DNA from: Naegleria gruberi
Taxonomy: Eukaryota
Length of the DNA stretch: 64,000 bases
Reading direction: 5' to 3' (one strand)
Assembly: GCA_000004985.1 (NCBI GenBank)
Contig: GG738848.1
Both the position numbers and the translations under genes were made by a program. The notes beneath the pieces were generated by a model. The model saw nothing but the letters and a program-made list of their open reading frames with translations. It searched no databases and was not told the origin of the DNA. This document shows positions 12,827 through 42,414 of this stretch, one piece after another; within the stretch, counting starts at the first letter, position 1, and each line of letters begins with the position of its first letter.

Positions 12827-13295
12827 CTTGTTTAAAGCAGTAGTGAAATAAAGAAACTTGGCAGATAGGTAACTGACTATATAAAACCAACAACAATAAA
12901 AACAACGCCCCTTATAATGATGAGGTTATTTTTTAAGGATGAAAAAATTGTTCTCTTCAGTTTGACTTGGCACTAACCATCTGCCCTACCATCAAAGCCT
13001 TTTATTTTTCCCGCTCTCTTAGAGCCCTTGGAGAGATGAACACGAACTATGAAGTGGAGCTGAATAAAATTCTTTCTTCGCAATTAAGGTCTCATGACCA
13101 TTGAACCTCTTTTTAAGGTTTCATCTATGTTGGAATATTGCATAATGATCTGGGAACTCTCAACGAAATTCAACGTTTTTCAACTTTAATTCTAAATTCA
13201 TTGATTTTAATATTTGAATGTTAATACTTGATTTACAAAATATTTCATCATTAATATCATTATTATTAATAAATTTAATAATATTATAAAATTTA

Positions 13296-14720
13296 TTAAG
13301 CATGATTCTTTGTATGTAAACCCTCTTTTAAAATTGTCATTTTCACATCATCAAAAACATGTCTAACATTATCAGTATCAGTGGCACATGTAACATGAGT
13401 ATAAAGTCTATTGGGTTCACCTTCTCGTACTAATTTTTTAAATTTTCCAGTAATAAATTCAACTGATTCATCAAAATTATTTCCATCTCCTTTAAAATCG
13501 GGAAAATAGGTTGAAATTGGATTCTTTTGAATTTTCTTCTCAAATAAATCTCTCTTATTGAAAAATAACAGTATTGATGTATGTTTAAAGTATTGATTAT
13601 TGGCAATTTCTTCAAAAATAGCAAGTGATTCTTGCATTCTATTGGTTTTATCATCTTCATAACATGTTTGATCATATTCTGATAGAGCTACAACAAAAAG
13701 TAGACATGTTACACTCTCAAAACAATGTATCCATTTTTTACGTTCTATATTTGGTAATTATTATTATAATATAATGATGATGATGATGATGATGATGAAA
13801 TTATTATGATGATCAATTGTGATCAATTATGCACATGTGAATGTTTATAATTATTGATAATATTATGATCAAATATTAAATATTAAATATTATTGAATAA
13901 TATATGATTAAATATTCAATTTTTTTCAATAATATAATTAACATACCATTTCTTTGACCTCCAACATCTAATAATCTGAAATATAAATTATCAATTTCAA
14001 ATTTACATTCCACAATACCCGTCGTTTTAACTCTACATTTTACAATATCTTCATAGGTTGGTATATATTCACGAGCACTTATACGTTCAATATTTTCAAA
14101 GAAATATTCAGCAGAATCAAATATTTGAAATTCATTTCTTCTATCATAGGCCTATATATATAAAAAAATGTGTGTAAATAGTTAATAGTTTGTGTAATAT
14201 ATTGTAAAGTATTTAAAGTATTGTAAATAGTATTGTAAACTTACAGTCCTTATACCAGAATCATTCCATAATTTTTTAATTGCATCTCCAATATGAGGAT
14301 TAGTATCAAATTCTCTAGCAGCAATTGCTAAATTTGGATCAAGTGATTTAATTTTCTCAGCAATTTTCATATTTTCTTCATTATCAAATTTAATTTGAAA
14401 TCGTGAAGTTCCATCAATTAATCTTAAACAATTTAAAATGACATTTCCTCTGACAAGTGGCACATATGATTCAACTTCCTCACTTGTAAACCCATTCAAA
14501 TGAATAATTTTAATTTGTTCTAGATAATAAATTAAATTAATTTTAGATGTAATATTAATTACATACTAAATAATGTTGACTTTCCCGATTCTCCACTTCC
14601 GAGAAGAAGTAATTTAATTTCCTTGTTTTGTAAGAGAGCTTGGTTTCGAATATCTTCAGCAATTTTCTTGTTTTTAGCTCTTGCTAGACTTGGATCTTCA
14701 TTCTTTCCACCACAAACCAT
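13296..14720 (-). CDS. heterotrimeric G protein alpha subunit, 4 exons, about 360 aa
   Basis: Exons are 14720..14567, 14519..14245, 14151..13947 and 13744..13296. Introns are 47, 93 and 202 nt (GTATGT/GTAAGT...AG), and the frame is conserved across all junctions. The protein carries the P-loop LLLLGSGESGKST, KIIH, switch II DVGGQRNERKKWIHCFE, NKRDLFEKK and TCATDT. Confidence 0.8.
13775..13797. repeat. (ATG)n microsatellite inside G-alpha intron 3
   Basis: The sequence atgatgatgatgatgatgatgatg is directly visible. Confidence 0.8.
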
Positions 14721-15258
14721 TTCAATTTATGTTTTATTGTTGTTGTTGTTGTATGATGATGACACAAAATGATGATGATGATGAAATTCTTATTGTTGTT
14801 GTATCCAAACTGAAGATGATGGATAAAAGAGAAATGACAATTTTTTTTAAACAGGTGACATGATGTGCTCGAGAGGGAGATTTTGCTGTTGATCTTTGAA
14901 GGGTTTCTCTTCAATATGTTTCCTTTCATCGCGTTTTAATCATAGATGACAAGAGAGTAGTCGCATTTCAATGCAATTGATAATTATGGTAAGGATTTAA
15001 AAACAGTGATGGTTCAAACCTTGTTATTATTATGAAATGTTGATTTGTTTATTTTCAATGAACCATACGATTGGTTTTTATGGATATCACTTCTATTATC
15101 ATGTTGGTTCAGTTTGATTTGTGGGCTCTAATTTGTTATTGAGAATTATTCGGTTTGCCTAAAGCATTAACAAGAACATCCAAAAACCATTTTGGATGTT
15201 CAAATAGTGTGGTATGGCTTTTAAGGGATAGATGCATGTTGTTAAGAGGTTTGTAAAA

Positions 15259-25334: not shown

Positions 25335-27308
25335 TTATTCATTTCCCAAAATATGGGTTTTAAATTTCCATGAAAGATTTGGTTTAGTTTGATTGTGTGC
25401 AAACATTGGATAAATAGTGGATGTAATAATTTCCATTAATTGTTTGAATTGAATAGTATCAAGTGCATTCATGTAAAATGTGAATATTCTTTTTGGATTA
25501 TGATTATCTTTTGCTTTAAATTTAGATTCAATAAAAGAAAGAGTTTTCAAAACTTTCTGTGAAATTTGTACTTCCTTGTCGAGAAGATACCTTTGTGGAT
25601 TATTGTTAGGGTTAAGTTGACTCGAAGTATTGGTGAAAAAGTTATTTTGATCAGGAACTGGGTATTGATTAAAATCTGGAAACAAGTCAAAAAGTGATTT
25701 GTCATCGCTAATGGTTTCACTCAAAATATCAATCTTTGTGAAAATGAGGAAAATTGGTGAATATTTGAGTGGTCCATTACATTGTTCTTCAAATAAGTTA
25801 ATACTTTCTATCATCCTATTTGAAAAATCATCTTCATAACAAGTCTTTCTAAAGTCAATCAGTGAAGTGGTATATAAAACGCCTGTCAATCCAGCATAAA
25901 TATTATTATACTTCTTTCTTTCTGTTCTGGCACCACCAACATCATAAACTCTAAATGGCATACCTAGATAATCATAATCTAGACATGTAATACCTGTTGT
26001 TTTACAACGACAACCAATAATGTCTTCAACTGATGGCTCATATTCGCTCAGTTTCTTAAACATTCGTTTCACAGCGCTCGTATCACCATGATCCCTTAAA
26101 TAATAATCCATGCCATCTGTCATTGAGTCTGTTAACGCATAACGATTTAAAACCTTTCTAACATCTGTATCCTCCCACATGGAAACAACAAATTCCTTCT
26201 GTGGTAATTTAGAAATATCAAAAAGTGTATATCTAGATTGTAATGAAGTAACTCTAGAATCAAACTCTTTAAACTTTTCGTATAAAGTTTCATCTAACAT
26301 GAAACGATTTTCTCTCGTAACCTTAGTTGTACCATTCTTAATAGCATCAACTTCATTCAAATAAAGTGAAACTCCTAATGAAAAACTTTGTAGTAAATTG
26401 GTAATAATATACATTCTCATTCTCTCAATTTCAGACCTATTGAAACCTTCTTGAAAAACAAGTCTGAATTGTCTGAAAAGTGTAGTTTTACCAGAACCTA
26501 AAGTGCCTGAAAGCATTAGAGTATAAACAGAGGGTGATTCGTATTTGGATTTCTGAACTTTTTTAGTTTTGGCAACATGTTGTGCGTTGGACGACGTTGC
26601 CTTATTCATTTCCTTTCTATGGGATGGAGCATTGGAACTAAAATGGCCATTGGTTGTAACATTCATATTCTTGGATATATGATTCGAGAGATGATAAAGT
26701 TGATTGTTGGTATTGGCAGGAGATACGTCATGGATATCTATTGTTGTTGTTGTTGAACTAGAGGATTGTTGGTGATGATTCACTGCTGTTGACAATGTTG
26801 AAGGAGTTGTGGTGGGGGTGGTGGTGGATAAATTACTCATCATCATTGGAGTGGTTGTTGTGGTTGACAAATTACTTGTTACTGATGGAGATGGACTTGT
26901 GAGAGATGATGATGCAGTTGTTGTCTCATTGCTGTTAACAACTTCATCTCCACTCATGTACAAGGGTATTGGTTTATCGAATGGAACTGTAGAAAGTGGA
27001 ATGATTTGATTTTGTCCAATGGTTGACTTTAACTTTTTGTACAATTGTTGTGTAGCTGTTGTTTCAGAATCAGATTCATGTCCATTGTTTTCCTGTGTGG
27101 TTACAGTAGCTGTGGCTTGATTGGCCATTGGAATCATCATGTTTGGTTCTAATTTGTGTTGCTGCTGTTGACCAGGTGGAACATCTCCAAAGGCTTTCTT
27201 CTTTTTTAAATATCTATTCATCATTTCCTTCTTCATTCGTTCATGTTCATTACTTTCCCTGATAACACTTGTTATGGATGGAAAGAAGAATGAAAGTAGA
27301 CTTTCCAT
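25335..27308 (-). CDS. divergent G-alpha-like protein with long S/T-rich N-terminal extension, 657 aa
   Basis: It is a single ORF. The G-alpha core is recognisable: P-loop LSGTLGSGKTT, switch I RCKTTGI, switch II FRVYDVGGARTERKKY, and a helical-domain-like insert. The guanine-specificity motifs are degenerate: NKxD reads TKID and TCAT reads MNAL. The catalytic Gln of DVGGQ is replaced by Ala. Confidence 0.75.
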   Translation of the reverse strand: MESLLSFFFPSITSVIRESNEHERMKKEMMNRYLKKKKAFGDVPPGQQQQHKLEPNMMIPMANQATATVTTQENNGHESDSETTATQQLYKKLKSTIGQNQIIPLSTVPFDKPIPLYMSGDEVVNSNETTTASSSLTSPSPSVTSNLSTTTTTPMMMSNLSTTTPTTTPSTLSTAVNHHQQSSSSTTTTIDIHDVSPANTNNQLYHLSNHISKNMNVTTNGHFSSNAPSHRKEMNKATSSNAQHVAKTKKVQKSKYESPSVYTLMLSGTLGSGKTTLFRQFRLVFQEGFNRSEIERMRMYIITNLLQSFSLGVSLYLNEVDAIKNGTTKVTRENRFMLDETLYEKFKEFDSRVTSLQSRYTLFDISKLPQKEFVVSMWEDTDVRKVLNRYALTDSMTDGMDYYLRDHGDTSAVKRMFKKLSEYEPSVEDIIGCRCKTTGITCLDYDYLGMPFRVYDVGGARTERKKYNNIYAGLTGVLYTTSLIDFRKTCYEDDFSNRMIESINLFEEQCNGPLKYSPIFLIFTKIDILSETISDDKSLFDLFPDFNQYPVPDQNNFFTNTSSQLNPNNNPQRYLLDKEVQISQKVLKTLSFIESKFKAKDNHNPKRIFTFYMNALDTIQFKQLMEIITSTIYPMFAHNQTKPNLSWKFKTHILGNE

Positions 27309-28528: not shown

Positions 28529-29979
28529 TTATTTTAGAGAAGCGAAATGTTTTAACAGGACACTGGTAGTAAAGGCATCATAAACTGGCTGTGCAAGAAT
28601 AATATCGATAGGTGTGAGTCCAAGATTAATCTTTTGTGTTCTCCATGCAGTACATTTAACAGCCAGCTTAAGCATGGACATGATGTAGAGATCGGTGTGA
28701 CTCATGTCATAAAATATCATGTGTAATAAGTTATCTCCCTTCTCATTCACTTTAAAGTATTCTTCAATATTTTCAATTCGTAATAGAAAATCAAACATTA
28801 AATTTTTTGGTAATGGGACTTGTATAATCGCAATGCAAAGGGGAAGGAAACAATTAGTAATCAGAGGAGTATAATCTATTCAAACTGATATTGGAAAAGT
28901 CGATAACAGAGAACATATTTTCAGATGCCATGAAATAAAATTCAAATAGTTGCTGTCTAAAATCCATAAACCACAACTCGCTCAATATTAGAACTTTGAA
29001 AAATAGTGACGTTTTTGATAGAGCTAATTCTACCTCCTTGATAGGTATTACATAAGTAAATTAAATATTGAAACCAATTATCTGGCGAAATATTGTCAAA
29101 AATTTCCATTGGAAATGCATGCTTTTTGAAGAAAAAATTTAGCATTTCTTTTACATAAGGGGCAGACATTTCATTCAATTTGAATAAACTGTCACACAAG
29201 GGTTGGCTTGGTAAGATGGAGTGTGGTTTTAGAACATGTTTAAATAAATATTCAAGTATTGAAGGACCAAAAATAGAGAGCTCAGTATTGAACAATTCTA
29301 AAAATTTGTAAAGGGGTTTGCTGTTTGGTCTGATATTTGGGTCCTGGAAATTCAGCATAATTTGTAATATTGGGATTGTAAGTATTGGTATCATTCATGT
29401 CATTAATAAGAATGACTTTCTTTGAATATTGAGAAGGAATGTCAAATCCACAACTTTGACAAAATATAACAAGTTTTTCCAATCCTTTCAAACATGATGT
29501 TAGGGAATTGTAACAATTTGAATTTGATAAATTATTCAAAATTATTACAATTTTTTTGGCTGTGTGGTTATCACCAATGTATTCCTCAATATTTACATAG
29601 TTGATTGATTCTTCTTTTGTTTCAAAATTGTATTTACCTTTAAGAATATCATATTCATCAACAAGATCTGTATCAAGTGTTGAATAGTAATAATTGGTTG
29701 ATCAGGTCTTAACTCATTAACTCTATTAGTGACTTTTGGCATTCCGTGCCGTTCGTAATGTGCATCAACCTCTCTGATAGATTTCCATTTTGCATAGGTT
29801 GGAATAAATTCAATAATTTCATACTTGATCATTGTATCTAAATGAGGAAGAAATGATAAATCCATTGGTGTTTCGGCATCGGTTGTTGTAGTTTTAGAAT
29901 TTTCTTTTTGATCCTCGTTGATCCATTCTTTAACTATTGGACACATCATGTGATAAGGATCTTTTTCTAATATTTCCAA
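28529..29979 (-). CDS. uncertain multi-frame gene with ankyrin-like C-terminus; model disrupted by at least one unspliceable frame change
   Basis: Four minus-strand ORFs (29593..29979, 29282..29539, 28957..29394 and 28529..28798) tile the region in three frames. A weak GTCATT...TTTCCAG intron could join the second and third. I found no GT-AG intron that joins the first and second across about 29600..29690. The C-terminal ORF has an ankyrin-like pattern, GDNLLHM...LGLTPIDIIL. Confidence 0.3.
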
Positions 29980-30285: not shown

Positions 30286-31155
30286 TTACAAATCCTCATC
30301 CTCTTCAGGTATGTACAACAAGAAAGCGTCAAATTCCTTCTCCCAAACACCTATTGTCGAGAATAGTTGTGTTGTTTCTTGCGCATCAAATTGTTGTAAT
30401 TTCACAACAGGTTCAATTTTCATATTCAAATCATAAATCTTTCTAATTAAATATTCTACAGATTTCAATACATTGTAATTTACAATTGAGCTCAAGTCAA
30501 AATAACCAATATTTTTCTTTCTGTGGAATGTAATTTGTTTTGGTTTGACTTTTCTATCCTTTTCATCTACTTTTGTACCACAAAGCACCATTCTATTTGA
30601 TGATGTTAGATTTCTCTTATCCAATGCATAATTTCCCATCCTAAACCACAACGGAGTATTCTTATAAGTCATTCTAGAAAGAGAGTTAAACATGATCATG
30701 AAACAATCTGCATCTTTGAGGAATATACAATCATCACTTAATAATAAATCATTCACAAGTGATGGATTAATTTCAGTGTGTGGATCATTTGAACACAACT
30801 CCCAAATTTCCAAGTAAAAGAGTGGAATTAGGAATTTAACTGATGTAATAGTTGCATAATAATAATCATTCAACTGTAAATTCCTCACCATTTTAGATTG
30901 AAATCTACTTGTAAAAGTTGATTTACCAACATTACTATCACCTAATAAAACTAATTTAATTCTTCTCGGAGGTGAATTAATTTTATATTTCAAGCCTGGT
31001 AATGTTGATTCATTCATTCCGATAAAAGAATCATCAAGAATAATTTTGGTTAATTCTTCTTCTTCTTGTATATTATTTGGAGTAGAATTTGTAACCTCAT
31101 GTTTGCATCGTTTATTGTCGATTGTGGTGACAATATGTTGTTGATCTCTTTTCAT
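30286..31155 (-). CDS. Ran-like small GTPase paralog with degenerate G3/G4 motifs (likely pseudoGTPase), 289 aa
   Basis: It aligns along the full length of Ran. The P-loop is KLVLLGDSNVGKSTF. The region IMFNSLSRMTYKNTPLWFR matches Ran IMFDVTSRVTYKNVPNWHR. The segment VLCGTKVDEKDRKVKPKQITFHRKKNIGYFDLSSIVNYN is Ran-like, and the acidic tail EEDEDL resembles Ran DEDDDL. WDTAGQE is replaced by WELCSND, and NKVD by TKVD. There is a 60-aa N-terminal extension. Confidence 0.75.
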   Translation of the reverse strand: MKRDQQHIVTTIDNKRCKHEVTNSTPNNIQEEEELTKIILDDSFIGMNESTLPGLKYKINSPPRRIKLVLLGDSNVGKSTFTSRFQSKMVRNLQLNDYYYATITSVKFLIPLFYLEIWELCSNDPHTEINPSLVNDLLLSDDCIFLKDADCFMIMFNSLSRMTYKNTPLWFRMGNYALDKRNLTSSNRMVLCGTKVDEKDRKVKPKQITFHRKKNIGYFDLSSIVNYNVLKSVEYLIRKIYDLNMKIEPVVKLQQFDAQETTQLFSTIGVWEKEFDAFLLYIPEEDEDL

Positions 31156-31304
31156 TTTTTTTACTATTCAATAAATTTTATTTAATTTTTAATTGTTGTA
31201 ACGGTAATATTATCCCAATATTCGCATCAAGAATTTTCAAAATAACAATTGTTTCATAGTATGTATTATTATTACAATTTAAATTCAATTTTAATTTCAA
31301 AAAA

Positions 31305-32809
31305 ATGGCATCAAAGGAAATAAGAGGCTCCTATCATGTTGATGAAGAATTAGAACAACAGGGCAAAGGACTTGATGATTTGATAGGTAAAGGAATTATT
31401 AATAGAAATAACAGAAATTATTTGGAATCTAGGTTAAAAACAAATATTAGACCATTGACAGAAAGTGATGATTATGAAGTTTATTTTAGTGGTAAATCAA
31501 TAAATGGTTCATTATTGACTGGATCATTGGAGGCTAAGAAATTGGATGGATTTGAAAAGTTTACAAAATATGGAGGTGGTGATGCAAAGAAAATATTAAT
31601 TCCGAAAGGTCAAGCTTTGAAATTTATTGATATTGGATTACAATTTACAGTGATAATGACAAATTTAAATGAAGCTTTTTTATATGGAGATTTTGTATAT
31701 GGATCAAGTTCGGCTGATATTAATCCTCTTGGAAGACAATTATCAATTCTAATGACACCAGAAGTTAAAATCAATAATTTCCCATATGAACCTGTTGCCA
31801 TGTTGTGTGGAGAACAATTTGTTGCAGTATTGGATAGCTGTAATAGATTGTGGTATTGTGGTATTGAAACTCACATTGGAACTGCTAGTAATAATTGTAC
31901 TTATGATTTTGTGGAAATTGGATTGAAAAAGTATTTGGAGACTGAATTTAATGATGAAACTACACATATCACTCACTTTAGAGTTGGAGGAAGACACTTG
32001 TGTTTATGTATTAATAATAGGACTATTATTTCAACAGGTAAGTGCCAATTCTTTCTATTTCATTCGAATACACATATATGTAAATTCATTAAGGTGCAAA
32101 CTATTTTGGACAGGTAGGTCATTAGCTTTAAATTAAATGCTCAATCCAAAAGTTGGGAATTATAAACACACCAGATTTGGTACCATCAGTTCTCCCAAGC
32201 ACTGTTGTCGATGCACTGTACAGCTATACATTCGTTAAAAGTTGGAATGAAGATGGAAAATATAGAGTAAGAGACGTTGCTTGCTCTGGAAATATGACAG
32301 CTATTCTCACAGGTAAGCTCAAACCAAAACACCAGATTTAACATTAATTATTAGAATGTGGAAAATTATTTAAAACCTGTAATGCATCTGAACCAATTCA
32401 AGCAGTTGTTCTGGATGGGTTTTCACTAACTACCATCGGTGGTAATTGGACTCACATTCTGGCACATACAAGCAAAAACCAAATGATGGGCATTACAGAT
32501 AATCATGTTACAGAATTCTTTAGCGAATCTCCCATTAAGAATTGTGATAATTTGCAAATCTCAACAGGAACCAATTCTAACTATACCTATTTTATTTACT
32601 CAAATAATGAATTATATGAACCACGCAATCCAAATCCTGTTCTCAAATCTTCTCTGCCAATAGTTGTTTGTAAAATGACATCTAAAGCAACCATGGTTTT
32701 ATGTATGAATTGTAAGAACAACAAGTCAATTGTTGCAATGAAACGAAACATGCTCCAATGTACAGTATCACAAGGGTTATCAGATATTCTAATCAATGTC
32801 CACCAATAA
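31305..32809 (+). CDS. RCC1-like / beta-propeller repeat protein, 3 exons
   Basis: Exons are about 31305..32037 (or to 32093, since the donor is ambiguous between GTAAGT at 32038 and GTGCAA at 32094), 32153..32312 and 32355..32809. The second intron is GTAAGC...ATTAG. Repeats follow an RCC1-like spacing: ITHFRVGGRHLCLCINNRTIISTG, VRDVACSGNMTAILTG, VVLDGFSLTTIGGNWTHIL and FVAVLDSCNRLWYCG. It is transcribed divergently from the Ran-like gene, with about 150 bp between the two start codons. Confidence 0.45.
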
Positions 32810-32811
32810 AT

Positions 32812-33470
32812 TTACGCTCTTTTGGAAATTGGAGGTAACTTTATTGACACGTAAGTTACCATATTTCACTTTGATTTTCACTTTCGAAACAAATAGTTCC
32901 AACATTTATGCTATTGGAAAGAGTGAAGAATTAATAGGTAATCTCATTTAGAAACACAGTATTGATCGTGATCAATTAATCATTGCCACTAAATACTCAG
33001 CTCCTTTCGCTCAACATGCCAATGGTGGTGGCAATCATAAGAAGAATTTAATTCAATCAATCAATGCCTCACTCAAGAGATTACAATTAGAGTTTGTTGA
33101 TATATTACACGTTCACTTTTGGGATTTCACTGTTGATGCCAATGGATCTTGGTATTGGTCCTTGGGGAGTACCCGGTGCTGGTAAATTGAGGTAAGAAAT
33201 TGAGAAATCAAGAAAGTTTGTTGAAATGACTCAAGATGACTATGTTGTACTTGAAATTGCAACAGAATTGAATAGAACTCCCTCACAAGTTGCTATCAAT
33301 TGGATGATTTCGCAAGGAGTGTCAAGTGTCTTGATTGGTCCAAGGAACTTTTGAACAATTTGCAGATAACATTAAGAGTTTGGAATTTAGATTAAATCAA
33401 GATCAATTGAACAGATTGAAGATACACAATCTGTTAGCATGTTATACTTGAATGGAAACAAGTTCTCTAT
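32812..33470 (+). pseudogene. aldo-keto reductase (AKR)-derived pseudogene fragment, 5'-truncated with stops and frameshifts
   Basis: Translation gives AKR-like segments: LEIGGNFIDT, an intron-like gtaagt...aaatag, then IGKSEELIGNLI*KHSIDRDQLIIATKYSAPF...NLIQSINASLKRLQLEFVDILHVHFWDFT, and TQDDYVVLEIATELNRTPSQVAINWMISQGVSSVLIGPRNF*. These are interrupted by in-frame TAG/TGA codons and frame changes. It starts immediately after the stop codon of the upstream gene and has no start codon. Confidence 0.6.
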
Positions 33471-35276: not shown

Positions 35277-35348
35277 TAGCAAATCTAGGTTTCGATCCTA
35301 GGACCTATGGGTTATGAGCCCATCGCGCTTCCGCTGCGCCAATTTGCT
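35277..35348 (-). tRNA. tRNAi-Met: initiator tRNA-Met (CAT anticodon), 72 nt
   Basis: The reverse complement is AGCAAATTGGCGCAGCGGAAGCGCGATGGGCTCATAACCCATAGGTCCTAGGATCGAAACCTAGATTTGCTA. It folds as a cloverleaf with a 7-bp acceptor stem, anticodon loop CTCATAA, the initiator-specific T-loop ATCGAAA, and three G-C pairs in the anticodon stem. Confidence 0.9.
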
Positions 35349-35651: not shown

Positions 35652-38256
35652 TTATTGCAAGATGAGATGAACTGTAATTTCCTCTTGTTCTGAAGAAATA
35701 TTAAGGATTCTCATCTTTTCATTCGATTTTAATAGAGAGGCTAGAGGAGTAGTCAAGTATGATTGCTCGTTATGTTCTGAGAATATTGATGGAGCAAATA
35801 AAGAACCAGTTTCTCCCTTGGAATTTGTAATGAAAATTGTGTCCATCTCCTGATTGAGTGTTCTAGCTTCCTTCACCAATTCCTCAATGGTATCTGTAAA
35901 TTTCATATGAATTTCTTTAATATTATCAGAAATGTTCTCATAATGAATGTCTAAATCATCCAAACAGATATTATACTTGATATAGGAAAGTTTCTTTGAA
36001 TATTGATTCAACTGTTGAAGATATTGAAGTAAATGAAAACATTGAATTGATGCTGCCACGGATGTGGTAGTAATCAGAGCTGGATGAATTGCTCCAGCTA
36101 TTTTCTTTGCTTTGAAAAACTCAATTGGCTTACAAAGTTTCCTCCCAAAAAGGAAAAAGTTTTCTGCCCTAATATTGGAAGTGTCTTGAACGAACTGAAC
36201 CATCAAATCATCATCTTTTTCATATACTAAAGGTTTGAATGGTGAATTGACCTTCATATTTGAGTGAGTCATCTCTTCACTTTTTTCAGGAATAGTTATT
36301 TGGTGGTGAAACTTATTTTCATATTGTTGCAATTCTTCCCTTGTCAATGGCATGAATGGAAATTCAACACTTGATACAGATCTTGTTGATGGAATCAAAT
36401 CATTATTATCAAGATGTCTGTACAGTAAATAAATAGTAGTATTCATAAATGAGAAGTGACTCTCCTTTTCATAATTCAATTTAGCAGGACGTGGAGTAAA
36501 CTCTACCGATTCATTAAGGAAATATTGAATCTTGTTATCTTCATTCAATTCATCCAAATTGCAAAGTGTATTTTCTTGGAATGGACTGACAAATAACTGA
36601 TTAAACACCTCACGTGCAAGCACATAGAGGTGATTATTGACATTTCCAAGTTCAACCCTTTCTAATAATCTTGGGACCATTCTTGTGAAATAATCTTCGT
36701 ATTTCATTTTACTCCACATGATTAAATCTTCATGTTTTTCAGGATTGCTTTTCAGTGTGCAGGATGTTCTGATCTCTTCTCTTTCTTCCTCCTCTGTTTT
36801 TTGATTCTCATTGTGGAAGGGCTTTGTTGAGGCGTAGAGATGGAATGAATTTTGTGAGTAAAATCCTTGAGTTCCAGAGTTGATGAATGGAATTTTGTAA
36901 AGATTACACTTGTGAGAGAGGAATTGTCTTGCATGGTCATTATCTACTGCACCAAAAACAACGTCAATGGAAGACCAGAATGAATCTTGATTAAGATATG
37001 ATTCACTGTCACTGGTCAACTTTTCTTCAAACGATTCAATATTGACCTTTGAATTAAAGTAGTTGACCATCTTTTTCAATATTTGAGATTTCTTTGATCC
37101 AATATCACTTTGAGAGAAGAAAAATTGACGATTAAGATTTGTCAACTCAATACTATCCATATCTGTCACGTACATTGAACCTCTAGTAGTACATGCATTC
37201 ATGACCATCAAGTTCTTTACCAATTCACAACCTATTGCTCCAGCACCAACAATTAAAATATTCAAATCCTCAAGACCTAGCTCTTGAATTTTGAGTTGGC
37301 TTGGAGCCAAAGATAATTGATCAAAAAAGAAATAATATGGGTGCTTTTCTTTTGACAGCTCCAAAATCTGACACAGAATCTCATTTGCTGTAATTGCAGC
37401 AAAAAAACTTGTCTGTTTGTTCATGAGTAATAAAATACTTTGTAAAAGCTTACCATTGCATAATTGGAAGTTTCTCTAACTTTCTCGTGTTGAATGAATT
37501 TTTCATGATAGAAATTTAACAATTGATCTTTAACTTCATTCTCGTCATATGAGTCAATTGGATTTTCCATTTCTTCCATCTTTTCTGTAAATAAATCAAA
37601 CAAGGTGTTGACATCCATATTGTCAATAAAATTAGAAACAAGAGTTGAGAATTCTTCTAATGAAGTGTTCTCAAATATTGCATTGAGAATAGGACCATCT
37701 AAACAGCTTCTGTGAAAATGAGGAATTTGCTCCGTTTCACTTTTTGGAATAGTCAATATTCTTCCAATAAGCCCACTCACTTGAACACTAACTATTGTAT
37801 TAGAAAGATCATTAAAATTTGATTTTTCAATTCCACATTTAACAATACACTTTTAACCATTAGAGATAAAACCTAAACTTTCACTTACTGAGAACTGTTT
37901 CAAATTATTAGAAACTTCATCTGCTGAAACTTGCTTCACATTTGAGTCAGGGTTTAATCGGTGAATTTCTTCTTGGAAATTTTCTCCTTTCACATAACTC
38001 TGATCAAAATTGTAAGCTATTAGAATAGAAGAAGAATACTTACATCAAAATGGATTGTTGACAAATCTCCTTCTTCAATAGCAACAAGAGCCATGGCTTT
38101 GAATCCTAAAAGGATTAAATTTTTGGTCAACTCGACCAACATTGAACAACTTTGAGTATTCCTTTGGTTGTACTCAATCATCAAGTTACTATTATGAATT
38201 TTACTTGTAGAATCCTGCCCTAAAGCATACTCTTGCCTGTCCCATAAGTTTGACAT
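35652..38256 (-). CDS. compact UBA1-architecture E1 ubiquitin-like activating enzyme, 4 exons, about 826 aa
   Basis: Exons are 38256..38044, 37999..37889, 37849..37454 and 37412..35652. Introns are 44, 39 and 41 nt, all GT-AG and all phase 0. The N-terminus LWDRQEYALGQ...LVELTKNLILLGFKAMALVAIEEGDLS matches the first (inactive) adenylation domain of E1s. The second ThiF domain is LNILIVGAGAIGCELVKNL...ELTNLNRQFFF...VDNDHAR. The catalytic-Cys box TSCTLKSNPEKHEDLIMW aligns with UBA1 PICTLKNFPNAIEHTLQW. The region between the two adenylation domains is too short to hold an FCCH domain. A UFD-like C-terminal domain is present. Confidence 0.7.
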
Positions 38257-38273
38257 TTTTTTGATCGAATGTT

Positions 38274-38280
38274 AACGTGA
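38274..38280 (+). promoter_or_regulatory. AACGTGA motif copy 1, in the shared E1/UEV1 bidirectional upstream region
   Basis: The sequence is gttAACGTGAttt, 18 bp from the E1 ATG on the minus strand and 56 bp before the UEV1 ATG. Confidence 0.5.
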
Positions 38281-38335
38281 TTTCCCAAGTCACTTCACTT
38301 TTCAAACTAAACTAATTGAAAAAAATTGTATTACA

Positions 38336-39064
38336 ATGTCTTCATCACGTTTGAGAAGGATCAAAAACGATCTTACAGAGGTACAACAAAATGCTTCTCT
38401 TCCTCCTTTATTAACATTTACACAGACTGAAAATTCTAGTATCATTCTCTTTAGTTTTAACTTGGACGAAACATCAAGTCTTTATGCAGGTGCCAATTTT
38501 CAGATTGAAGTTTCATTCCCAGAAAATTATCCCCACAAACCTCCTTCTTTCACATTCAAACACACCGTTCCATATCATTTCCTTGTTGATCAAATTAATG
38601 GAAAGGTAATTGGCCTCTCAAAACTTTCGACATGGTCAATGCTATTCACTTTACAATCAATATTTTCTGATCTCTACTCAAAATTTGTAAATGAACCAAG
38701 TCAAGAAGATGCTGAACAATGTGGTGTTAATGAGGATATGATTACAGAATATAGAAACACTCCACAAATCTACAGAGAAAAAGCAAGAAACTCTGTCAGA
38801 AAGTTGCAATTAACTGTAATTGAAAATCCTCTTGATTCAAATGAAATGAAGGATGAAGAATCTACTGAATCGAATGAAACGATTCATGAAGTAGTAGTTG
38901 ATGAAAATAACTTGCAGCCAAGTAATCCAATTTTGGAACAACCACTTGATTCAAGATTTGTTAATTCCAGTAATCACCACAAAATTGTTTCTCATGAAGA
39001 TGAATGGAATTATGAATACGGCTTGTATCATTTAAATATGAGATATGGAAATTACAATCAATAA
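38336..39064 (+). CDS. UBC-fold E2 variant (UEV) lacking catalytic Cys, 242 aa
   Basis: The E2 N-terminal helix is SRLRRIKNDLTEV, followed by FPENYPHKPPSFTFKHTVPYHFLVDQINGKVIGLSKLSTWS. The HPN-x-G-x-I-C-L core is present, but the Cys position is not conserved. The only Cys in the protein lies in the C-terminal tail. Confidence 0.65.
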   Translation: MSSSRLRRIKNDLTEVQQNASLPPLLTFTQTENSSIILFSFNLDETSSLYAGANFQIEVSFPENYPHKPPSFTFKHTVPYHFLVDQINGKVIGLSKLSTWSMLFTLQSIFSDLYSKFVNEPSQEDAEQCGVNEDMITEYRNTPQIYREKARNSVRKLQLTVIENPLDSNEMKDEESTESNETIHEVVVDENNLQPSNPILEQPLDSRFVNSSNHHKIVSHEDEWNYEYGLYHLNMRYGNYNQ

Positions 39065-39114
39065 ATATTTTATTCAGAATATATTGTACATTTGTTTTTG
39101 TAACAGATTATTGC

Positions 39115-39945
39115 TTATTGAAATAACAATCTATTTTCAATTTCGTGCAAATCCTCTTTGGTTTGTGTTGGAGCTACAGGCAATGAACACTTGACATATG
39201 CACCATGAGTTGTTCCAGTTGCTTCTGTACCACTACACTTGAACGGCCATTTACCAGTATTTGTATTGTAAAGAGACAAACAAGCATGACAAAAAACAGC
39301 ATTACATCTTGGACAGTGAGTATGCTTGCACCTGTCTAACTTTCCATCAGATGATGCTTGTCTTTCACAATAATTTCCACAATTAACACATAATCTTGCC
39401 AAAGGAACAACTATTTCTTGATTGGATAGATTAATCTTGGCAGTTACAGAGGATCTAGTTGTCAAGGCAGTGATCAAGGGATCTTCATTAGAACATCCAT
39501 TTCCACAAATTCCTTCACCATTCTTCCATTGATTGCCACAAATGAAACAAAAGTCAAATTTGCAAACATCACAACTCAATCTAACATCGCTGGTGTTTCT
39601 TCTAATGAAGTGATTCTTACACTTATTACAAGTAGTTGCTCTCTTGATCTTGTAATGAATATCATTCAATGCTGAATCAAACTCTTCAATTTTATCATAA
39701 TCGATATTGGCTTGATTGACCCAATTCATTGAAATGGTTTCGCCACAATTAGTTTCATCACTTCCAGTTACATTCTTATTGGAACCATAACAAACCATTG
39801 CTGTTCCTTTCGACAAGTTTTGTAAATTTTCAACAAGACAGTCTTGACAAATATAATGTTGACATTTAAGTTTCAATAATTGTTGAGTGCCAAGACAATA
39901 GAAGCATTTAGACATTTTTTTGACTTGAGAGTTCCCAAATGTCAC
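39115..39945 (-). CDS. RING-between-RING (RBR) E3 ubiquitin ligase, 276 aa
   Basis: RING1 reads CFYCLGTQQLLKLKCQHYICQDC...C..C. The IBR reads CNKCKNHFIRR...CDVCKFDFCFICGNQW. The Rcat reads CVNCGNYCERQASSDGKLDRCKHTHCPRCNAVFCHAC, which matches HHARI [20 protein letters not shown], with the catalytic Cys in DRCKH. Confidence 0.75.
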   Translation of the reverse strand: MTFGNSQVKKMSKCFYCLGTQQLLKLKCQHYICQDCLVENLQNLSKGTAMVCYGSNKNVTGSDETNCGETISMNWVNQANIDYDKIEEFDSALNDIHYKIKRATTCNKCKNHFIRRNTSDVRLSCDVCKFDFCFICGNQWKNGEGICGNGCSNEDPLITALTTRSSVTAKINLSNQEIVVPLARLCVNCGNYCERQASSDGKLDRCKHTHCPRCNAVFCHACLSLYNTNTGKWPFKCSGTEATGTTHGAYVKCSLPVAPTQTKEDLHEIENRLLFQ

Positions 39946-39977
39946 TAGTCAAGCTGCACTTCAAACAGCTTTTTCGA

Positions 39978-39984
39978 AACGTGA
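39978..39984 (+). promoter_or_regulatory. AACGTGA motif copy 2, in the shared RBR/UBL upstream region
   Basis: The sequence is cgaAACGTGAtg. Confidence 0.5.
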
Positions 39985-40001
39985 TGAAACTTATACACTC
40001 A

Positions 40002-40008
40002 AACGTGA
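40002..40008 (+). promoter_or_regulatory. AACGTGA motif copy 3
   Basis: The sequence is caAACGTGAta, about 80 bp upstream of the UBL ATG. Confidence 0.5.
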
Positions 40009-40086
40009 TACACCCCAAAACGCAACACAAGAATTCAATAAATAGATTTTAAATCACAGAATATTAATATCTCAATTCATAAAAAA

Positions 40087-40356
40087 ATGTCCACTCCATT
40101 AAACGTTTCCATTCAACAAGGTGTCCATACTAAAGTACTCTCAATCAGTCAAACTGCAACAGTGAAAGACCTTGCAACCATGTACAAATCCCAAACTGAA
40201 CTTAAAGAATTCTACTTTTTGCATAGAACCACCAGACTTGAAGAAACTACTATTGTTTCTCATATTATTAAACATCCAAACCAAAAGTTAGTAGTTGTTG
40301 GAATTGCTAAAGGTGGTTCTGAAGAAGGAAGAGCATCAATCTTGTCTCTTATTTAA
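40087..40356 (+). CDS. small ubiquitin-like (beta-grasp) protein with internal Gly-Gly followed by a 12-aa C-terminal tail, 89 aa
   Basis: The sequence MSTPLNVSIQQGVHTKVLSISQTATVKDLATMYK...KLVVVGIAKGG|SEEGRASILSLI has the length and hydrophobic periodicity of a ubiquitin fold. It loosely resembles the UFM1 core ([11 protein letters not shown] compared with KVLSISQTATV). GG at positions 76-77 followed by a short extension is the arrangement seen in processed UBL precursors. Confidence 0.5.
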   Translation: MSTPLNVSIQQGVHTKVLSISQTATVKDLATMYKSQTELKEFYFLHRTTRLEETTIVSHIIKHPNQKLVVVGIAKGGSEEGRASILSLI

Positions 40357-40513
40357 ACCTAGTTGAGTTTCGTCAAGATATTGAAATAAACTCTCTTTTT
40401 TCAATTAAATCGAAATATTAATCATTTCTGCTGCTTATGAAATCAAGCCGTGTGATCAAACGAGAATCTAATTTTGGTGCCACTGGTGCAAATGATTAAG
40501 TTAGGAAGTCTGA

Positions 40514-40520
40514 AACGTGA
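40514..40520 (+). promoter_or_regulatory. AACGTGA motif copy 4, 17 bp upstream of the UEV2 ATG
   Basis: The sequence is tgaAACGTGAaa. Confidence 0.5.
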
Positions 40521-40536
40521 AAAAAACAATTAAAAA

Positions 40537-41016
40537 ATGTCAAAACAAAGAAGAATTCTGAATGAAGTTGCTGAAGCCAACAAGAACAATCATCCAAAGA
40601 TCAAATTTGAAATTTCCCAAGAGAATTTACATGGTTGGAATTGTTCATTTAAAGGTCCAGATAACACTCCCTATCAAGATTTGCAATTTGAAGGAACTCT
40701 CTGTCTTCCGTAAGTTTAGTTTGGATTAGTTTTGCTAATATTTTGCTTGGTTAGAAATGATTTTCCTTCATCAAGACCAACCTTTGTATTCTCTTCCAAA
40801 ACAATTCCATACCACATCAATGTAGACGATAGTGGTGTAGCTTCTGTCTCTTTGCAATGGACTCCCACACTCACAGGAATAGTTTTTGTCGAAAGTGTAA
40901 TTAACATGTTAGAAACTCCACAACCAACTTGTTCTGTTAGTGATGAAAGATTCAAATTATATCAAAGTAACAAAGATCAATATCAAAAACAAGCCAGCAA
41001 ATTCCTCCAAGAATAA
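40537..41016 (+). CDS. Mms2/Uev1-like E2 variant (UEV) lacking catalytic Cys, 2 exons, 144 aa
   Basis: Exons are 40537..40709 and 40755..41016, with a 45-nt intron GTAAGT...GGTTAG that is phase 2 and keeps frame. The sequence is RRILNEVAEANKNN...WNCSFKGPDNTPYQDLQFEGTLCLPNDFPSSRPTFVFSSKTIPYHINVDDSGVASVSLQWTP. The UBC fold is present with Ala at the active-site Cys position. It resembles Mms2 KINMNGINNSSGMVDARSI. Confidence 0.65.
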
Positions 41017-41022
41017 ACGTGA
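41016..41022 (+). promoter_or_regulatory. AACGTGA motif copy 5 (overlaps the UEV2 stop codon)
   Basis: The sequence is taAACGTGAtc. Confidence 0.45.
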
Positions 41023-41037
41023 TCATTGTAAACTTGA

Positions 41038-41044
41038 AACGTGA
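41038..41044 (+). promoter_or_regulatory. AACGTGA motif copy 6, 18 bp upstream of the USP ATG
   Basis: The sequence is gaAACGTGAga. Confidence 0.5.
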
Positions 41045-41061
41045 GACGAATCTTAAAAAAA

Positions 41062-42414
41062 ATGTTAGAAAGAGGTTTTGAAAATGTTGGCAATACCTGT
41101 TATTTGAATTCTTCTTTGGTAACACTCCTCTGCATTGATCAGTTCAAGAGTCTTATCAACACCAGTAAATCACCAATTTGTAAACTAACAAGTCAACTGT
41201 TGGAAAAAAAAATGTCCATGAAGGAGTTTGTCAATATTTTGCAGAAAATGTTTGATTACTTTCTAAAAGATAAGGTTTGTTTATAATACTGATAATTTTG
41301 ATTGAATTTGTGCAGAATTTCATGTTGAGATCTCAAAATGATTCATCTGTAAGTTTCTAATGCTTTACAAATCGAAATTAATGACAGGAAAAAGGAATTC
41401 ATTACAAAGTTGTTACAAATCATAAAGCTCGAAAAGAACCATGATTTATCATTCATGGATGGAGAATTAGAAACAAGAATTAGTTGTACAAATTGTGGAG
41501 ATATAGATCAGTACGTTTCTCCATTTATTGGGCAAAAAGTTTGCGTTCCCTATTCACAACCATTGAATTCTTTACTTGAAAGCTTTTTCTTGGTTAGTGA
41601 GCCTTGTAGTCAATGCTCTGGAACATTTAGTACCTCTCAATTCTTTAAGGGGACAATTCCACACTGGTTATTATTTCAATTCTACTATACAGAAGCATCG
41701 ACAAGAGTTGAACTTGATGAGAATGAATTAGTTTGCTCTCTTTCAGTCAAAGAGGGTGAATGTGCAGAGTATGATATTAAGGCAATGACTCTTCGTTGTG
41801 GAGGAGATCTTAAATATGGACATTATGTCAGTGCTGTTTTTTTCAACAAGGGTGTTAGAGTTTACAATGACAGTTTTATTAGAGATTATCCAAACTTTAA
41901 AAGTTTTTGGATGGAATATTCGGGTTGGCAAATCAAAGACATTCTTCTTGAATCAATTGTATATGAAGATGTTGTTGCAGAGGAAACAGAACAACAAACA
42001 AAAAAAGGATTCCTACGACGTGTACGAGGTTTTGTTCAAAAAATCAAAAAGCAAACCAAGTTTAAGAAAAAAGAAACGATTGGACTCAAAAAAGCACTCA
42101 TTCAATACCGGAAGCAATTCATTGAAGAAATTGAAAAAAGAAATAGCCATTTTGAAACGGACACATGCTTTTTACTATTGTTATACCAAATTTGGGAACT
42201 TATAATTAGATATCTGGAATTATTGTTTAAGCTTGCTGCTGGTGTTGAAGTTAGACTCTGGCAATCAACATCTATTTTCTCACCAAAATATTTCACAGAT
42301 TCACAAATCTATTTTGCAGATATTGAATTTCATTTTCAAGACAACCAACCCCAAAACATTCGAAAGCCAGTTGAAGAAGAAATCAAATCACTTGAATTTG
42401 TATATCACCTCTAA
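41062..42414 (+). CDS. USP-family ubiquitin-specific protease (deubiquitinase), 3 exons, about 423 aa
   Basis: Exons are 41062..41274, 41316..41348 and 41388..42414. Introns are 41 and 39 nt (GTTTGT...TGCAG and GTAAGT...GACAG), both phase 0. The Cys box is GFENVGNTCYLNSSL. The QQD-box-like segment is QNDSSGKKEFITKLL. The His box is YDIKAMTLRCGGDLKYGHYVSAVFFNKGVRVYNDSFI. Confidence 0.75.

What the first reader, a model, noticed from the sequence alone, without database searches (positions are those of the whole stretch)
30286..32809. Head-to-head pair: a Ran-like pseudoGTPase and an RCC1-like repeat gene
The 289-aa protein aligns with Ran from the P-loop to the acidic C-terminal tail. It has lost the DxxGQ switch II motif (WELCSND) and changed NKVD to TKVD, so it is unlikely to cycle GTP normally. 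Its promoter region (31156..31304) is shared with a divergently transcribed gene. That gene's product has RCC1-like repeat spacing, and RCC1 is the exchange factor for Ran. A bidirectional promoter linking a degenerate Ran paralogue to a degenerate RCC1-like propeller suggests a co-evolved regulator/effector pair.
Basis: partly seen in the sequence, partly recalled or inferred. Interest (0 to 1): 0.6.

Follow-up and report, generated by a model that had tools for sequence, protein, structure and literature searches.

The report
Divergent Ran paralogue beside RCC1-like gene
In the amoeba Naegleria gruberi, a fast-evolving, switch-defective copy of the nuclear-transport GTPase Ran lies head-to-head with an RCC1-like propeller gene, but related species do not keep the two genes together, so they are probably chance neighbours, not a matched pair.

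Summary
The window is Naegleria gruberi. ORF 30286..31155(-) encodes a 289-aa protein whose best matches are Ran (E about 5e-24, against 2e-8 for Rab). It keeps the P-loop, the basic patch and the acidic tail (EEDEDL). It has WELCSND in place of DTAGQE, TKVD for NKVD and SSI for SAK. This ORF is absent from the annotated proteome.

The plus-strand gene has four exons, including a 20-nt micro-exon. It is NAEGRDRAFT_62730, a degenerate RCC1-like-domain (RLD) propeller, supported by Pfam PF25390 (E 4.6e-21) and by Foldseek hits of the AlphaFold2 model that are all RLDs. The start codons are 149 bp apart.

The interpretation as a co-evolved pair is not supported:
- N. fowleri and N. lovaniensis have Ran-like relatives, and these two species plus Willaertia have RLD relatives. 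The two genes are never within 6-10 kb of each other there.
- The window RLD is one of two N. gruberi-specific duplicates. It sits outside the locus that N. fowleri and N. lovaniensis share, and a decayed aldo/keto-reductase pseudogene follows it directly.
- By profile, the RLD is nearer RPGR and UVR8 than RCC1.

What remains is a Naegleria-specific, rapidly evolving Ran-derived candidate pseudoGTPase family that I found described nowhere. That is modestly interesting.

The parts
30286..31155 (-). Single-exon ORF of 289 aa including the stop codon: a Ran-derived paralogue and candidate pseudoGTPase. It is absent from the annotated N. gruberi proteome.
   Evidence: ORF. Ran is the best PDB match at E about 5e-24, against 2e-8 for Rab. 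The AF2 model's top 50 Foldseek hits are all Ran/Gsp1. The exact sequence is not in the 15-billion-protein collection, and no near-identical hit was found. Codon usage is in frame.
30979..31155 (-). N-terminal extension of about 59 aa that canonical Ran lacks, predicted disordered. It contains KR-x10-NKRCK, which fits the classical bipartite nuclear-localisation pattern (31102..31152).
   Evidence: pLDDT is below 50 for residues 5-57. Extensions are also present in the N. fowleri and N. lovaniensis relatives. The motif was read from the sequence. The nuclear-localisation reading is inference only.
30919..30942 (-). G1 / P-loop GDSNVGKS, which retains the GxxxxGK[ST] pattern.
30784..30804 (-). 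The G3 / switch II position reads WELCSND in place of WDTAGQE. The Asp, Gly and catalytic Gln are all replaced, and an insertion of about 12 aa follows.
30565..30576 (-). G4 reads TKVD in place of NKVD.
30511..30561 (-). Ran helix alpha4 and basic patch, KDRKVKPKQITFHRKKN, almost unchanged from canonical Ran.
   Evidence: These are invariant columns in the alignments; coordinates.
30289..30306 (-). Acidic C-terminal tail EEDEDL (Ran has DEDDDL), preceded by a predicted C-terminal helix.
31156..31304 (.). 149-bp spacer with 16% G+C between the two divergent start codons.
   Evidence: Promoter function was not tested.
31305..32037 (+). Exon 1 of the RLD gene NAEGRDRAFT_62730.
   Evidence: The spliced product is 100% identical to XP_002681980.1.
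32094..32113 (+). 20-nt micro-exon. Together with the flanking exons it encodes GANYFGQLG, the only intact RCC1 repeat signature in the protein.
   Evidence: RCC1 repeat hit over residues 243-303
32153..32312 (+). Exon 3 of the RLD gene.
32355..32809 (+). Exon 4 of the RLD gene, including the stop codon.
   Evidence: The C-terminus aligns with the orthologues.
32810..33350 (+). Decayed aldo/keto-reductase pseudogene starting directly after the RLD stop codon. It is a context feature that points to local rearrangement.
   Evidence: Only Pfam PF00248 positions 27-116 and 216-263 are present, with an in-frame TAG at 32949..32951 and frame changes.

Best explanation
These are two independent genes that became neighbours in the compact N. 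gruberi genome. They are not a conserved functional unit.

Gene 1 belongs to a Naegleria-specific, very fast-evolving family derived from Ran.
- It keeps the G-domain fold, the P-loop, a near-canonical G4 (TKVD), Ran's alpha4 basic patch and the C-terminal helix with acidic tail.
- The switch II DxxGQ motif is destroyed, the switch I region is unrecognisable, and insertions flank switch II and helix alpha3.
- Inferred mechanism: it may still bind nucleotide but cannot sense the gamma-phosphate or hydrolyse GTP as Ran does. It would therefore not be cycled by RCC1 and RanGAP. It more likely acts as a constitutive binder, scaffold or decoy for a partner that recognises the retained basic patch and acidic tail, such as a Ran-binding-domain protein or a karyopherin.

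Gene 2 is a degenerate seven-bladed RCC1-like-domain propeller from a family confined to Naegleria and Willaertia. It is most plausibly a protein-interaction module with an unknown partner. The window copy is one of two N. gruberi-specific duplicates in a rearranged locus.

Shown: the gene identities, the motif states, the folds, the phylogenetic distribution and the lack of conserved adjacency. Inferred: the biochemical consequences and the partner type.
For: - Identity of the Ran-like gene.
- Genus relatives share an N-terminal extension, loss of DTAGQ (WDYQNEN and WDYQNDN) and an insertion after switch II. A profile search found no further members.
- Fast evolution: dN between N. fowleri and N. 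lovaniensis is 0.377, against 0.003 (proteasome alpha) and 0.082 (L22) for neighbouring genes, whose dS is about 0.4.
- RLD identity. The family has only six members, all from Naegleria or Willaertia.
- No adjacency in any relative.
- The RLD tree shows species-specific duplicates: 85% identity within N. gruberi and 83% within N. lovaniensis.
- N. lovaniensis L001 and N. fowleri L003 share a cyclin - RLD - TPR arrangement that the window lacks.
- An aldo/keto-reductase pseudogene abuts the RLD stop codon.
- A second head-to-head pair with about 140-160 bp spacing lies in the same window.
- Two other divergent Ran-like genes on metagenome contigs also lack RLD neighbours.
Against: - For a single Ran-like gene, having one of roughly 18 or more RCC1-type genes as an immediate neighbour is unlikely a priori. 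The count of 18 RCC1-type genes comes from PMC9928731. With about 15,700 genes (from memory), this gives roughly 0.2-0.6%.
- The DNA around the N. gruberi paralogue NAEGRDRAFT_69018 could not be read. A duplicated Ran-like + RLD unit is therefore not excluded.
- Orthology of the N. gruberi Ran-like gene with the N. fowleri and N. lovaniensis genes rests on shared indels and motif loss. It does not rest on synteny or on a score advantage: 28-34% identity to them, depending on the alignment, against 34-39% to canonical Ran.
- There are no expression or interaction data.
Confidence: 0.68

Rival explanations
1. This is a functional pair specific to N. gruberi. The RLD propeller binds the Ran-like protein as an exchange-factor-like regulator or an effector, and the 149-bp spacer co-regulates both genes.
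For: - Head-to-head with 149 bp between start codons.
- The Ran-like protein keeps helix alpha4 and the basic patch nearly intact. From memory of the Ran-RCC1 complex (PDB 1I2M), that region is part of the RCC1 interface.
- The RLD fold resembles RCC1.
- Chance adjacency for this one gene is roughly 0.2-0.6% (gene counts and from memory).
Against: - Adjacency is absent in N. fowleri, N. lovaniensis and Willaertia.
- The RLD family occurs in Willaertia, where no Ran-like relative was found.
- The RLD profile is closer to RPGR and UVR8 than to RCC1, and the protein lacks RCC1's basic N-terminal tail (read from the sequence).
- Switch II, a core part of the RCC1 contact surface, is replaced and followed by an insertion.
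- Genome-wide, several chance adjacencies of a small GTPase with a regulator-type gene are expected. N. gruberi has 182 Ras-like GTPases. If about 2% of genes belong to GEF/GAP-type families (my estimate), about 7 such pairs arise by chance.
Confidence: 0.1
2. The Ran-like ORF is a non-functional relic, meaning an unexpressed or decaying Ran duplicate, and only the RLD gene is a working gene.
For: - It is not in the reference annotation or in any protein collection.
- Its catalytic motifs are extremely divergent.
- In the genus relatives, dN is close to the dS of neighbouring genes.
- The N. fowleri relative has its acidic tail shifted out of frame.
- A decayed pseudogene lies in the same locus.
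Against: - 289 codons without a stop, at a chance probability of about 3e-12, and in-frame codon usage typical of window genes.
- Divergence from Ran is strongly uneven. The alpha4 basic patch and the tail are conserved while the switches are lost, which is not the pattern of neutral decay.
- Intact ORFs persist in three Naegleria species.
- With the gene's own dS, dN/dS is about 0.3.
Confidence: 0.15
3. The RLD protein is the heterolobosean Ran exchange factor (a divergent RCC1 orthologue), and the Ran-like gene is simply its neighbour.
For: RCC1 chains are among the best structural matches. RCC1 orthologues are hard to detect in excavates, and none has been identified in trypanosomes (PMC3032688; PMC11825100).
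Against: - The profile E-value to RCC1 is only about 0.1, against 1.6e-8 for RPGR.
- Only one of seven blades keeps the RCC1 signature.
- There is no basic N-terminal tail.
- The family is duplicated and evolves fast: 42-43% identity between N. gruberi and N. fowleri or N. lovaniensis.
- Naegleria has about 18 RCC1-type genes that could fill this role.
Confidence: 0.04

Closest known systems
Ran / Gsp1 (Ras superfamily, Ran family)
   Same: It is the best sequence and structure match. The two share the P-loop, the alpha4 basic patch (FHRKKN), the C-terminal helix, the acidic tail, and the absence of a lipidation motif.
   Different: - Switch II DTAGQE is replaced by ELCSND.
- Switch I cannot be aligned.
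- NKVD becomes TKVD and SAK becomes SSI.
- There is an N-terminal extension of about 59 aa and two insertions.
- It evolves very fast, whereas Ran is usually single-copy and among the most conserved eukaryotic proteins (PMC6177115).
PseudoGTPases, meaning G-domain proteins that have lost catalytic motifs (for example Rnd and RhoH, the p190RhoGAP pG domains, and microsporidian ArlEM; PMC5593906 and PMC13393502)
   Same: It has a G-domain fold with degenerate G3 and catalytic residues. If the P-loop and G4 still bind nucleotide, it would fall among the members that bind nucleotide but are catalytically dead.
   Different: It derives from Ran. My literature searches found no description of a Ran-derived pseudoGTPase. 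Nucleotide binding and hydrolysis are untested.
N. fowleri FDP41_001384 and N. lovaniensis C9374_004706 (uncharacterised Ran-like proteins)
   Same: All have an N-terminal extension, loss of DTAGQ, an insertion after switch II, and the Ran basic patch.
   Different: - They keep NKVD and SAK/SAR.
- They are only 28-34% identical to the window protein, depending on the alignment.
- They lie in a different neighbourhood (L22, proteasome alpha, methyltransferase, NFACT) with no RLD gene.
RCC1-like domain (RLD) proteins: RCC1, RPGR, UVR8, HERC1/2, RCC2, WBSCR16, Kti13
   Same: It is predicted to be a seven-bladed propeller whose best Foldseek hits are all RLDs. It matches Pfam PF25390 at E 4.6e-21 and carries one canonical GxNxxGQLG hairpin.
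   Different: - The Pfam score is below the gathering threshold.
- Six of the seven blades have lost the signature.
- By profile it is closest to RPGR and UVR8, not RCC1.
- It has no basic N-terminal tail.
- The family is restricted to Naegleria and Willaertia.

Membership tests
Ran family GTPase | Closer to Ran than to any other small GTPase family | tested here: met
   The top 44 PDB sequence hits are all Ran/Gsp1 (E 4.5e-24 to 7e-23), and the next is Rab27B at 2e-8. The top 50 Foldseek hits are all Ran.
Ran family GTPase | G1 P-loop GxxxxGK[ST] | tested here: met
   GDSNVGKS at residues 72-79.
Ran family GTPase | G3 / switch II DTAGQE, which carries the gamma-phosphate-sensing Gly and the catalytic Gln69 | tested here: not met
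   The sequence reads ELCSND. The Asp, Gly and Gln are all replaced, and an insertion of about 12 aa follows.
Ran family GTPase | G4 NKVD and G5 SAK guanine-specificity motifs | tested here: not met
   TKVD and SSI. The Lys and Asp of G4 are retained, so guanine binding is not excluded.
Ran family GTPase | Switch I with Thr42 | tested here: inconclusive
   Different alignments place N, D or T at this position. The region has pLDDT 29-40 in the model.
Ran family GTPase | Ran-specific basic patch (HRKK) plus a C-terminal helix and an acidic DEDDDL tail | tested here: met
   FHRKKN is conserved, a helix is predicted at residues 258-280, and the tail reads EEDEDL.
Ran family GTPase | GTP/GDP cycling driven by RCC1 and RanGAP | not testable with these tools
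   This needs nucleotide-binding, hydrolysis and exchange assays.
PseudoGTPase | G-domain fold with loss of motifs needed for hydrolysis or nucleotide binding | tested here: met
   The fold is shown. The loss of G3 and of the catalytic Gln is shown.
PseudoGTPase | Demonstrated lack of GTPase activity | not testable with these tools
   This is a biochemical test.
RCC1-like domain (RLD) superfamily | Significant match to RLD or RCC1-repeat profiles | tested here: inconclusive
   PF25390 matches at E 4.6e-21 but at 76 bits, below the curated cutoff of 150. The RCC1 repeat matches at E 0.004, 18.1 bits against a cutoff of 21.7. The family profile matches RPGR RLD at E 1.6e-8.
RCC1-like domain (RLD) superfamily | Seven-bladed beta-propeller fold | tested here: met
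   The AF2 model is all-beta with repeating four-strand units (pTM 0.60, but mean pLDDT only 51.7). The top 50 Foldseek PDB hits are all RLD propellers, with E from 1.5e-14 to 1e-9 and TM about 0.5.
RCC1 proper (Ran exchange factor orthologue) | Closest to RCC1 among RLD proteins, with orthologues across eukaryotes | tested here: not met
   Profile E-values are 1.6e-8 for RPGR, 3.5e-5 for UVR8 and 0.08-0.1 for RCC1. Homologues are found only in Naegleria and Willaertia.
RCC1 proper (Ran exchange factor orthologue) | Basic N-terminal tail that provides nuclear localisation and chromatin binding | tested here: not met
   The N-terminus reads MASKEIRGSYHVDEELEQQGKGLDDL, which is acidic (read).
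RCC1 proper (Ran exchange factor orthologue) | Exchange activity on Ran | not testable with these tools
   This is a biochemical test.
Conserved bidirectional (head-to-head) gene pair | Divergent orientation with a short shared spacer | tested here: met
   149 bp between the start codons.
Conserved bidirectional (head-to-head) gene pair | Adjacency kept in related genomes | tested here: not met
   None of the RLD loci L001-L005 has a Ran-like gene, and none of the Ran-like loci L006-L008 has an RLD gene.
Conserved bidirectional (head-to-head) gene pair | Co-expression | not testable with these tools
   No transcript data are available here, and the Ran-like ORF is unannotated.

The most novel reading that the evidence does not exclude
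Naegleria carries a previously undescribed, genus-specific family of Ran-derived pseudoGTPases. These proteins have lost switch II but keep Ran's basic patch and acidic tail. In N. gruberi, this protein has been brought next to a lineage-specific RCC1-like propeller that has become its dedicated binding partner. That would be a young regulator/effector module working beside the canonical Ran system, possibly in Naegleria's closed mitosis or in the amoeba-to-flagellate switch.
Probability: 0.07. Interest if true: 0.6.

Novelty: new variant of a known kind. Interest (0 to 1): 0.3.

Why it matters
Ran is normally single-copy and almost invariant. A lineage-specific Ran copy that discards the switch but keeps the partner-binding basic patch and tail would add a Ran-derived member to the pseudoGTPases. 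It could also show which Ran surfaces work without nucleotide cycling. On the practical side, the N. gruberi member is missing from the reference annotation and should be added. The proposed Ran-like/RCC1-like module would matter only if it were real, and the comparative evidence argues that the adjacency is incidental.

Tried and rejected
- Exact-sequence look-ups for the Ran-like ORF and for the N. gruberi RLD proteins P0113 and P0114 found no N. gruberi contigs. I therefore could not read the paralogue's locus or the annotated gene list around the window.
- tblastn of the Ran-like protein against all RLD loci gave only noise, even at E 50.
- tblastx of the whole window against all related loci found no synteny beyond the genes themselves and a tRNA.
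- I considered the tRNA-Met near the Ran-like genes in three species as residual synteny. I rejected it as proof because only the tRNA and about 25 nt upstream are conserved, and the other neighbours differ.
- phmmer against 1.84 billion cluster representatives and a three-sequence profile search found no further Ran-like family members, for example in Willaertia.
- Literature searches for the locus tags and for Ran-derived pseudoGTPases found nothing specific. The pseudoGTPase review PMC7544640 is not held.
- RCC1 catalytic residues and the beta-wedge could not be assessed. At 12% identity and with a low-confidence model, the alignment is not reliable.
Full report
**Source and gene models**

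The window has about 30% G+C and short GT..AG introns. Splicing the plus-strand ORF fragments as 31305..32037, 32094..32113, 32153..32312 and 32355..32809 gives a 455-aa protein. This protein is 100% identical to 'predicted protein [Naegleria gruberi]' XP_002681980.1 / NAEGRDRAFT_62730. The window is therefore N. gruberi, and the model is the annotated one. The introns are 56, 39 and 42 nt. The second exon is a 20-nt micro-exon that completes GANYFGQLG, the classical RCC1 repeat hairpin.

**The Ran-like ORF**

ORF 30286..31155(-) is an uninterrupted 289-codon frame.
- Given its composition, the chance of no stop codon in 289 codons is about 3e-12. Its codon usage scores 0.23 bits/codon in frame and -0.54 and -0.71 out of frame, within the range of other genes in the window.
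- Against PDB sequences, the top 44 hits are all Ran/Gsp1 (E 4.5e-24 to 7e-23). The next family, Rab27B, is at 2e-8. The alignments run from the P-loop to the last residues.
- An AlphaFold2 model built on a 62-sequence alignment has a confident G-domain core and a C-terminal helix. It has a disordered N-terminal 57 residues and a low-confidence switch I region. Its top 50 Foldseek hits are all Ran. The alignment was dominated by Ran sequences, which biases this result.

Alignments and coordinates give the following motif states:

| Element | Canonical Ran | Window protein | State |
|---|---|---|---|
| G1 P-loop | GDGGTGKT | GDSNVGKS | retained |
| G3 / switch II | WDTAGQE | WELCSND | lost, followed by a 12-aa insertion |
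| G4 | NKVD | TKVD | altered |
| G5 | SAK | SSI | altered |
| alpha4 / basic patch | KDRKVKAKSIVFHRKKN | KDRKVKPKQITFHRKKN | almost unchanged |
| C-terminal tail | DEDDDL | EEDEDL | retained |

The exact sequence is absent from the 15-billion-protein collection, and no near-identical protein turned up. The gene is therefore missing from the N. gruberi annotation.

**Relatives of the Ran-like gene**

A full phmmer scan of 1.84 billion cluster representatives found mostly canonical Rans and tandem-Ran fusions. It also found two Naegleria proteins with N-terminal extensions:
- N. fowleri FDP41_001384 (321 aa)
- N. lovaniensis C9374_004706 (312 aa)

Both have lost DTAGQ (WDYQNEN and WDYQNDN). Both carry an insertion after switch II at the same place as the window protein. 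Both keep the basic patch. A profile built from the three sequences found no additional members, and none in Willaertia.

The family evolves very fast.
- Amino-acid identity between N. fowleri and N. lovaniensis is 52%, with dN 0.377.
- The neighbouring proteasome alpha gene has dN 0.003 and the L22 gene 0.082. Those neighbours have dS of about 0.4.
- In N. fowleri the acidic tail YLPDDDDDL is still encoded, but in the -1 frame.

I treat the three genes as one genus-specific family. Orthology of the N. gruberi member rests on shared indels and motif losses, not on synteny or on a score advantage.

**The RCC1-like gene**

- Pfam gives the RCC1-like domain PF25390 at E 4.6e-21 (76 bits, below the curated cutoff of 150) and one RCC1 repeat at E 0.004.
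- Homologues exist only in N. gruberi (a second copy, NAEGRDRAFT_69018), N. lovaniensis (two copies), N. fowleri (FDP41_011898) and Willaertia magna.
- An AlphaFold2 model from this six-sequence alignment has low confidence (mean pLDDT 51.7, pTM 0.60) but is all-beta with repeated four-strand units. Its 50 best Foldseek PDB matches are all RCC1-like propellers: RCC1, RPGR, UVR8, HERC1/2, RCC2, WBSCR16 and Kti13.
- The family profile against PDB sequences ranks RPGR first (1.6e-8), then UVR8 (3.5e-5). RCC1 itself scores only about 0.1.
- The N-terminus is acidic, unlike RCC1's basic chromatin-binding tail.

It is therefore a degenerate member of the RLD superfamily. It is not a recognisable RCC1 orthologue.

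**Is the adjacency conserved?**

No.

*RLD loci.* I fetched them in N. lovaniensis (L001, L002), N. fowleri (L003, L004) and W. magna (L005), with 6-kb flanks. tblastn with the Ran-like protein found nothing, even at E 50.

*Ran-like loci.* I fetched them in N. fowleri (L006, L007) and N. lovaniensis (L008), with 10-kb flanks.
- They contain L22, proteasome alpha, methyltransferase/DFP and NFACT genes, but no RLD gene.
- tblastx of the whole window against them matched only the Ran-like gene and a tRNA-Met.

*The RLD tree* shows that the two N. gruberi copies (85% identical) and the two N. lovaniensis copies (83%) are species-specific duplicates.

*Synteny.* N. lovaniensis L001 and N. fowleri L003 share a cyclin - RLD - TPR arrangement that the window lacks. 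The window copy therefore sits outside that shared locus.

*Pseudogene.* Directly after its stop codon lies a decayed aldo/keto-reductase pseudogene.
- Only profile positions 27-116 and 216-263 remain.
- It has an in-frame stop and frame changes.
- This is a sign of local rearrangement.

*Other Ran-likes.* Two other divergent Ran-like genes on metagenome contigs also have no RLD neighbour.

**How much does the geometry mean?**

The 149-bp, 16% G+C spacer must hold whatever promoters exist. The genome is compact, however. The same window has another head-to-head pair about 140-160 bp apart (55603..56541(-) and 56683..57417(+)).

The Naegleria pangenome paper counts about 18 RCC1-type genes and 182 Ras-like GTPases (PMC9928731). 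With about 15,700 genes (from memory), the chance that this particular gene has an RLD neighbour is roughly 0.2-0.6%. Across all small GTPases and all regulator-type families, several chance adjacencies are expected genome-wide. The coincidence is suggestive but post hoc.

**Most likely explanation**

These are two independent genes.

The Ran-like protein is a candidate pseudoGTPase.
- It may still bind nucleotide, since the P-loop and the Lys and Asp of G4 are retained.
- It lacks the gamma-phosphate-sensing Gly and the catalytic Gln, and it has a remodelled switch II surface.
- It should therefore not cycle under RCC1 and RanGAP control (inference from established small-GTPase mechanism).
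- What selection has kept is the alpha4 basic patch and the acidic tail. In Ran, these are the elements engaged by Ran-binding domains and karyopherins (from my own knowledge, not tested here). A constitutive binder or decoy role is my best guess.
- The N-terminal KR-x10-NKRCK fits a bipartite nuclear-localisation pattern. It is not conserved in the relatives and remains speculation.

The RLD protein is most likely a protein-interaction propeller with an unknown partner.

**Rivals**

- A real N. gruberi-specific pair (0.10).
- The Ran-like ORF is a non-functional relic (0.15). The intact ORF, the codon usage and the uneven conservation argue against this. Its absence from the annotation, the high dN and the N. 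fowleri frameshift argue for it.
- The RLD is the heterolobosean Ran exchange factor (0.04).

**Novelty and verdict**

A Ran-derived pseudoGTPase family does not appear in the literature I could search. Ran is otherwise usually single-copy and highly conserved (PMC6177115). I therefore rate this a new variant of a known kind, of modest interest (0.3).

Noticed in passing
window 30286..31155 (-): The Ran-like ORF is not present in any protein collection searched, by exact or near-identical match. It appears to be missing from the N. gruberi reference annotation, although its neighbour NAEGRDRAFT_62730 is annotated.
   Followed up: yes
window 32810..33350 (+): A decayed aldo/keto-reductase pseudogene starts in frame directly after the RLD stop codon. 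Only Pfam PF00248 positions 27-116 and 216-263 remain. It has an in-frame TAG at 32949..32951, about 100 profile positions deleted, and frame changes.
   Followed up: partly
window 35652..42414: Four ubiquitin-system genes cluster within 7 kb: an E1-like gene (ThiF + UBA_E1_SCCH, 35652..37424 -), an E2 (UQ_con, 38336..39064 +), an IBR/RING protein (39115..39945 -) and a UCH-type deubiquitinase (41410..42414 +). As a candidate group of functionally linked neighbours, this may be stronger than the finding under review.
   Followed up: partly
window 35277..35348 (-); L006 about 12780..12850; L008 about 14700..14780: A tRNA-Met(CAT) gene, with about 25 nt of conserved AT-rich upstream flank, lies within 2-4 kb of the Ran-like gene in N. 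gruberi, N. fowleri and N. lovaniensis. This could be residual microsynteny or a shared Pol III upstream element.
   Followed up: partly
L006 about 10818..10847 (N. fowleri FDP41_001384): The canonical acidic tail YLPDDDDDL* is still encoded, but in the -1 frame relative to the annotated ORF, which reads on into unrelated sequence. The same protein sequence is present in independent assemblies, so this looks like a real frameshift in a fast-evolving gene.
   Followed up: partly
window 32094..32113 (+): A 20-nt micro-exon flanked by introns of 56 and 39 nt encodes the core of the only intact RCC1 signature (GANYFGQ) in the RLD protein.
   Followed up: yes
window 55603..56541 (-) and 56683..57417 (+): A second head-to-head gene pair, a mitochondrial carrier and an unknown Ser/Lys-rich protein, has about 140-160 bp between the start codons. 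Such spacing is therefore ordinary in this genome.
   Followed up: partly
L009 1191..4268 (metagenome contig ERZ27256376 k141_93299): Three tandem copies of a divergent 229-230-aa Ras-family gene. The copy I examined (P0123) is Ran-like and has WDLDGAS in place of WDTAGQE. They come from an unidentified organism, so Ran-derived switch-altered paralogues are not unique to Naegleria.
   Followed up: no
window 25335..27308 (-): A G-protein alpha subunit gene (PF00503, E 3.4e-69) with a long Ser/Thr-rich N-terminal extension of about 240 aa lies 3 kb from the Ran-like gene.
   Followed up: no
window 28529..29979 (-): The gene immediately downstream of the Ran-like ORF consists of several minus-strand ORF pieces with no Pfam match. 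Its exon structure and identity were not resolved.
   Followed up: partly
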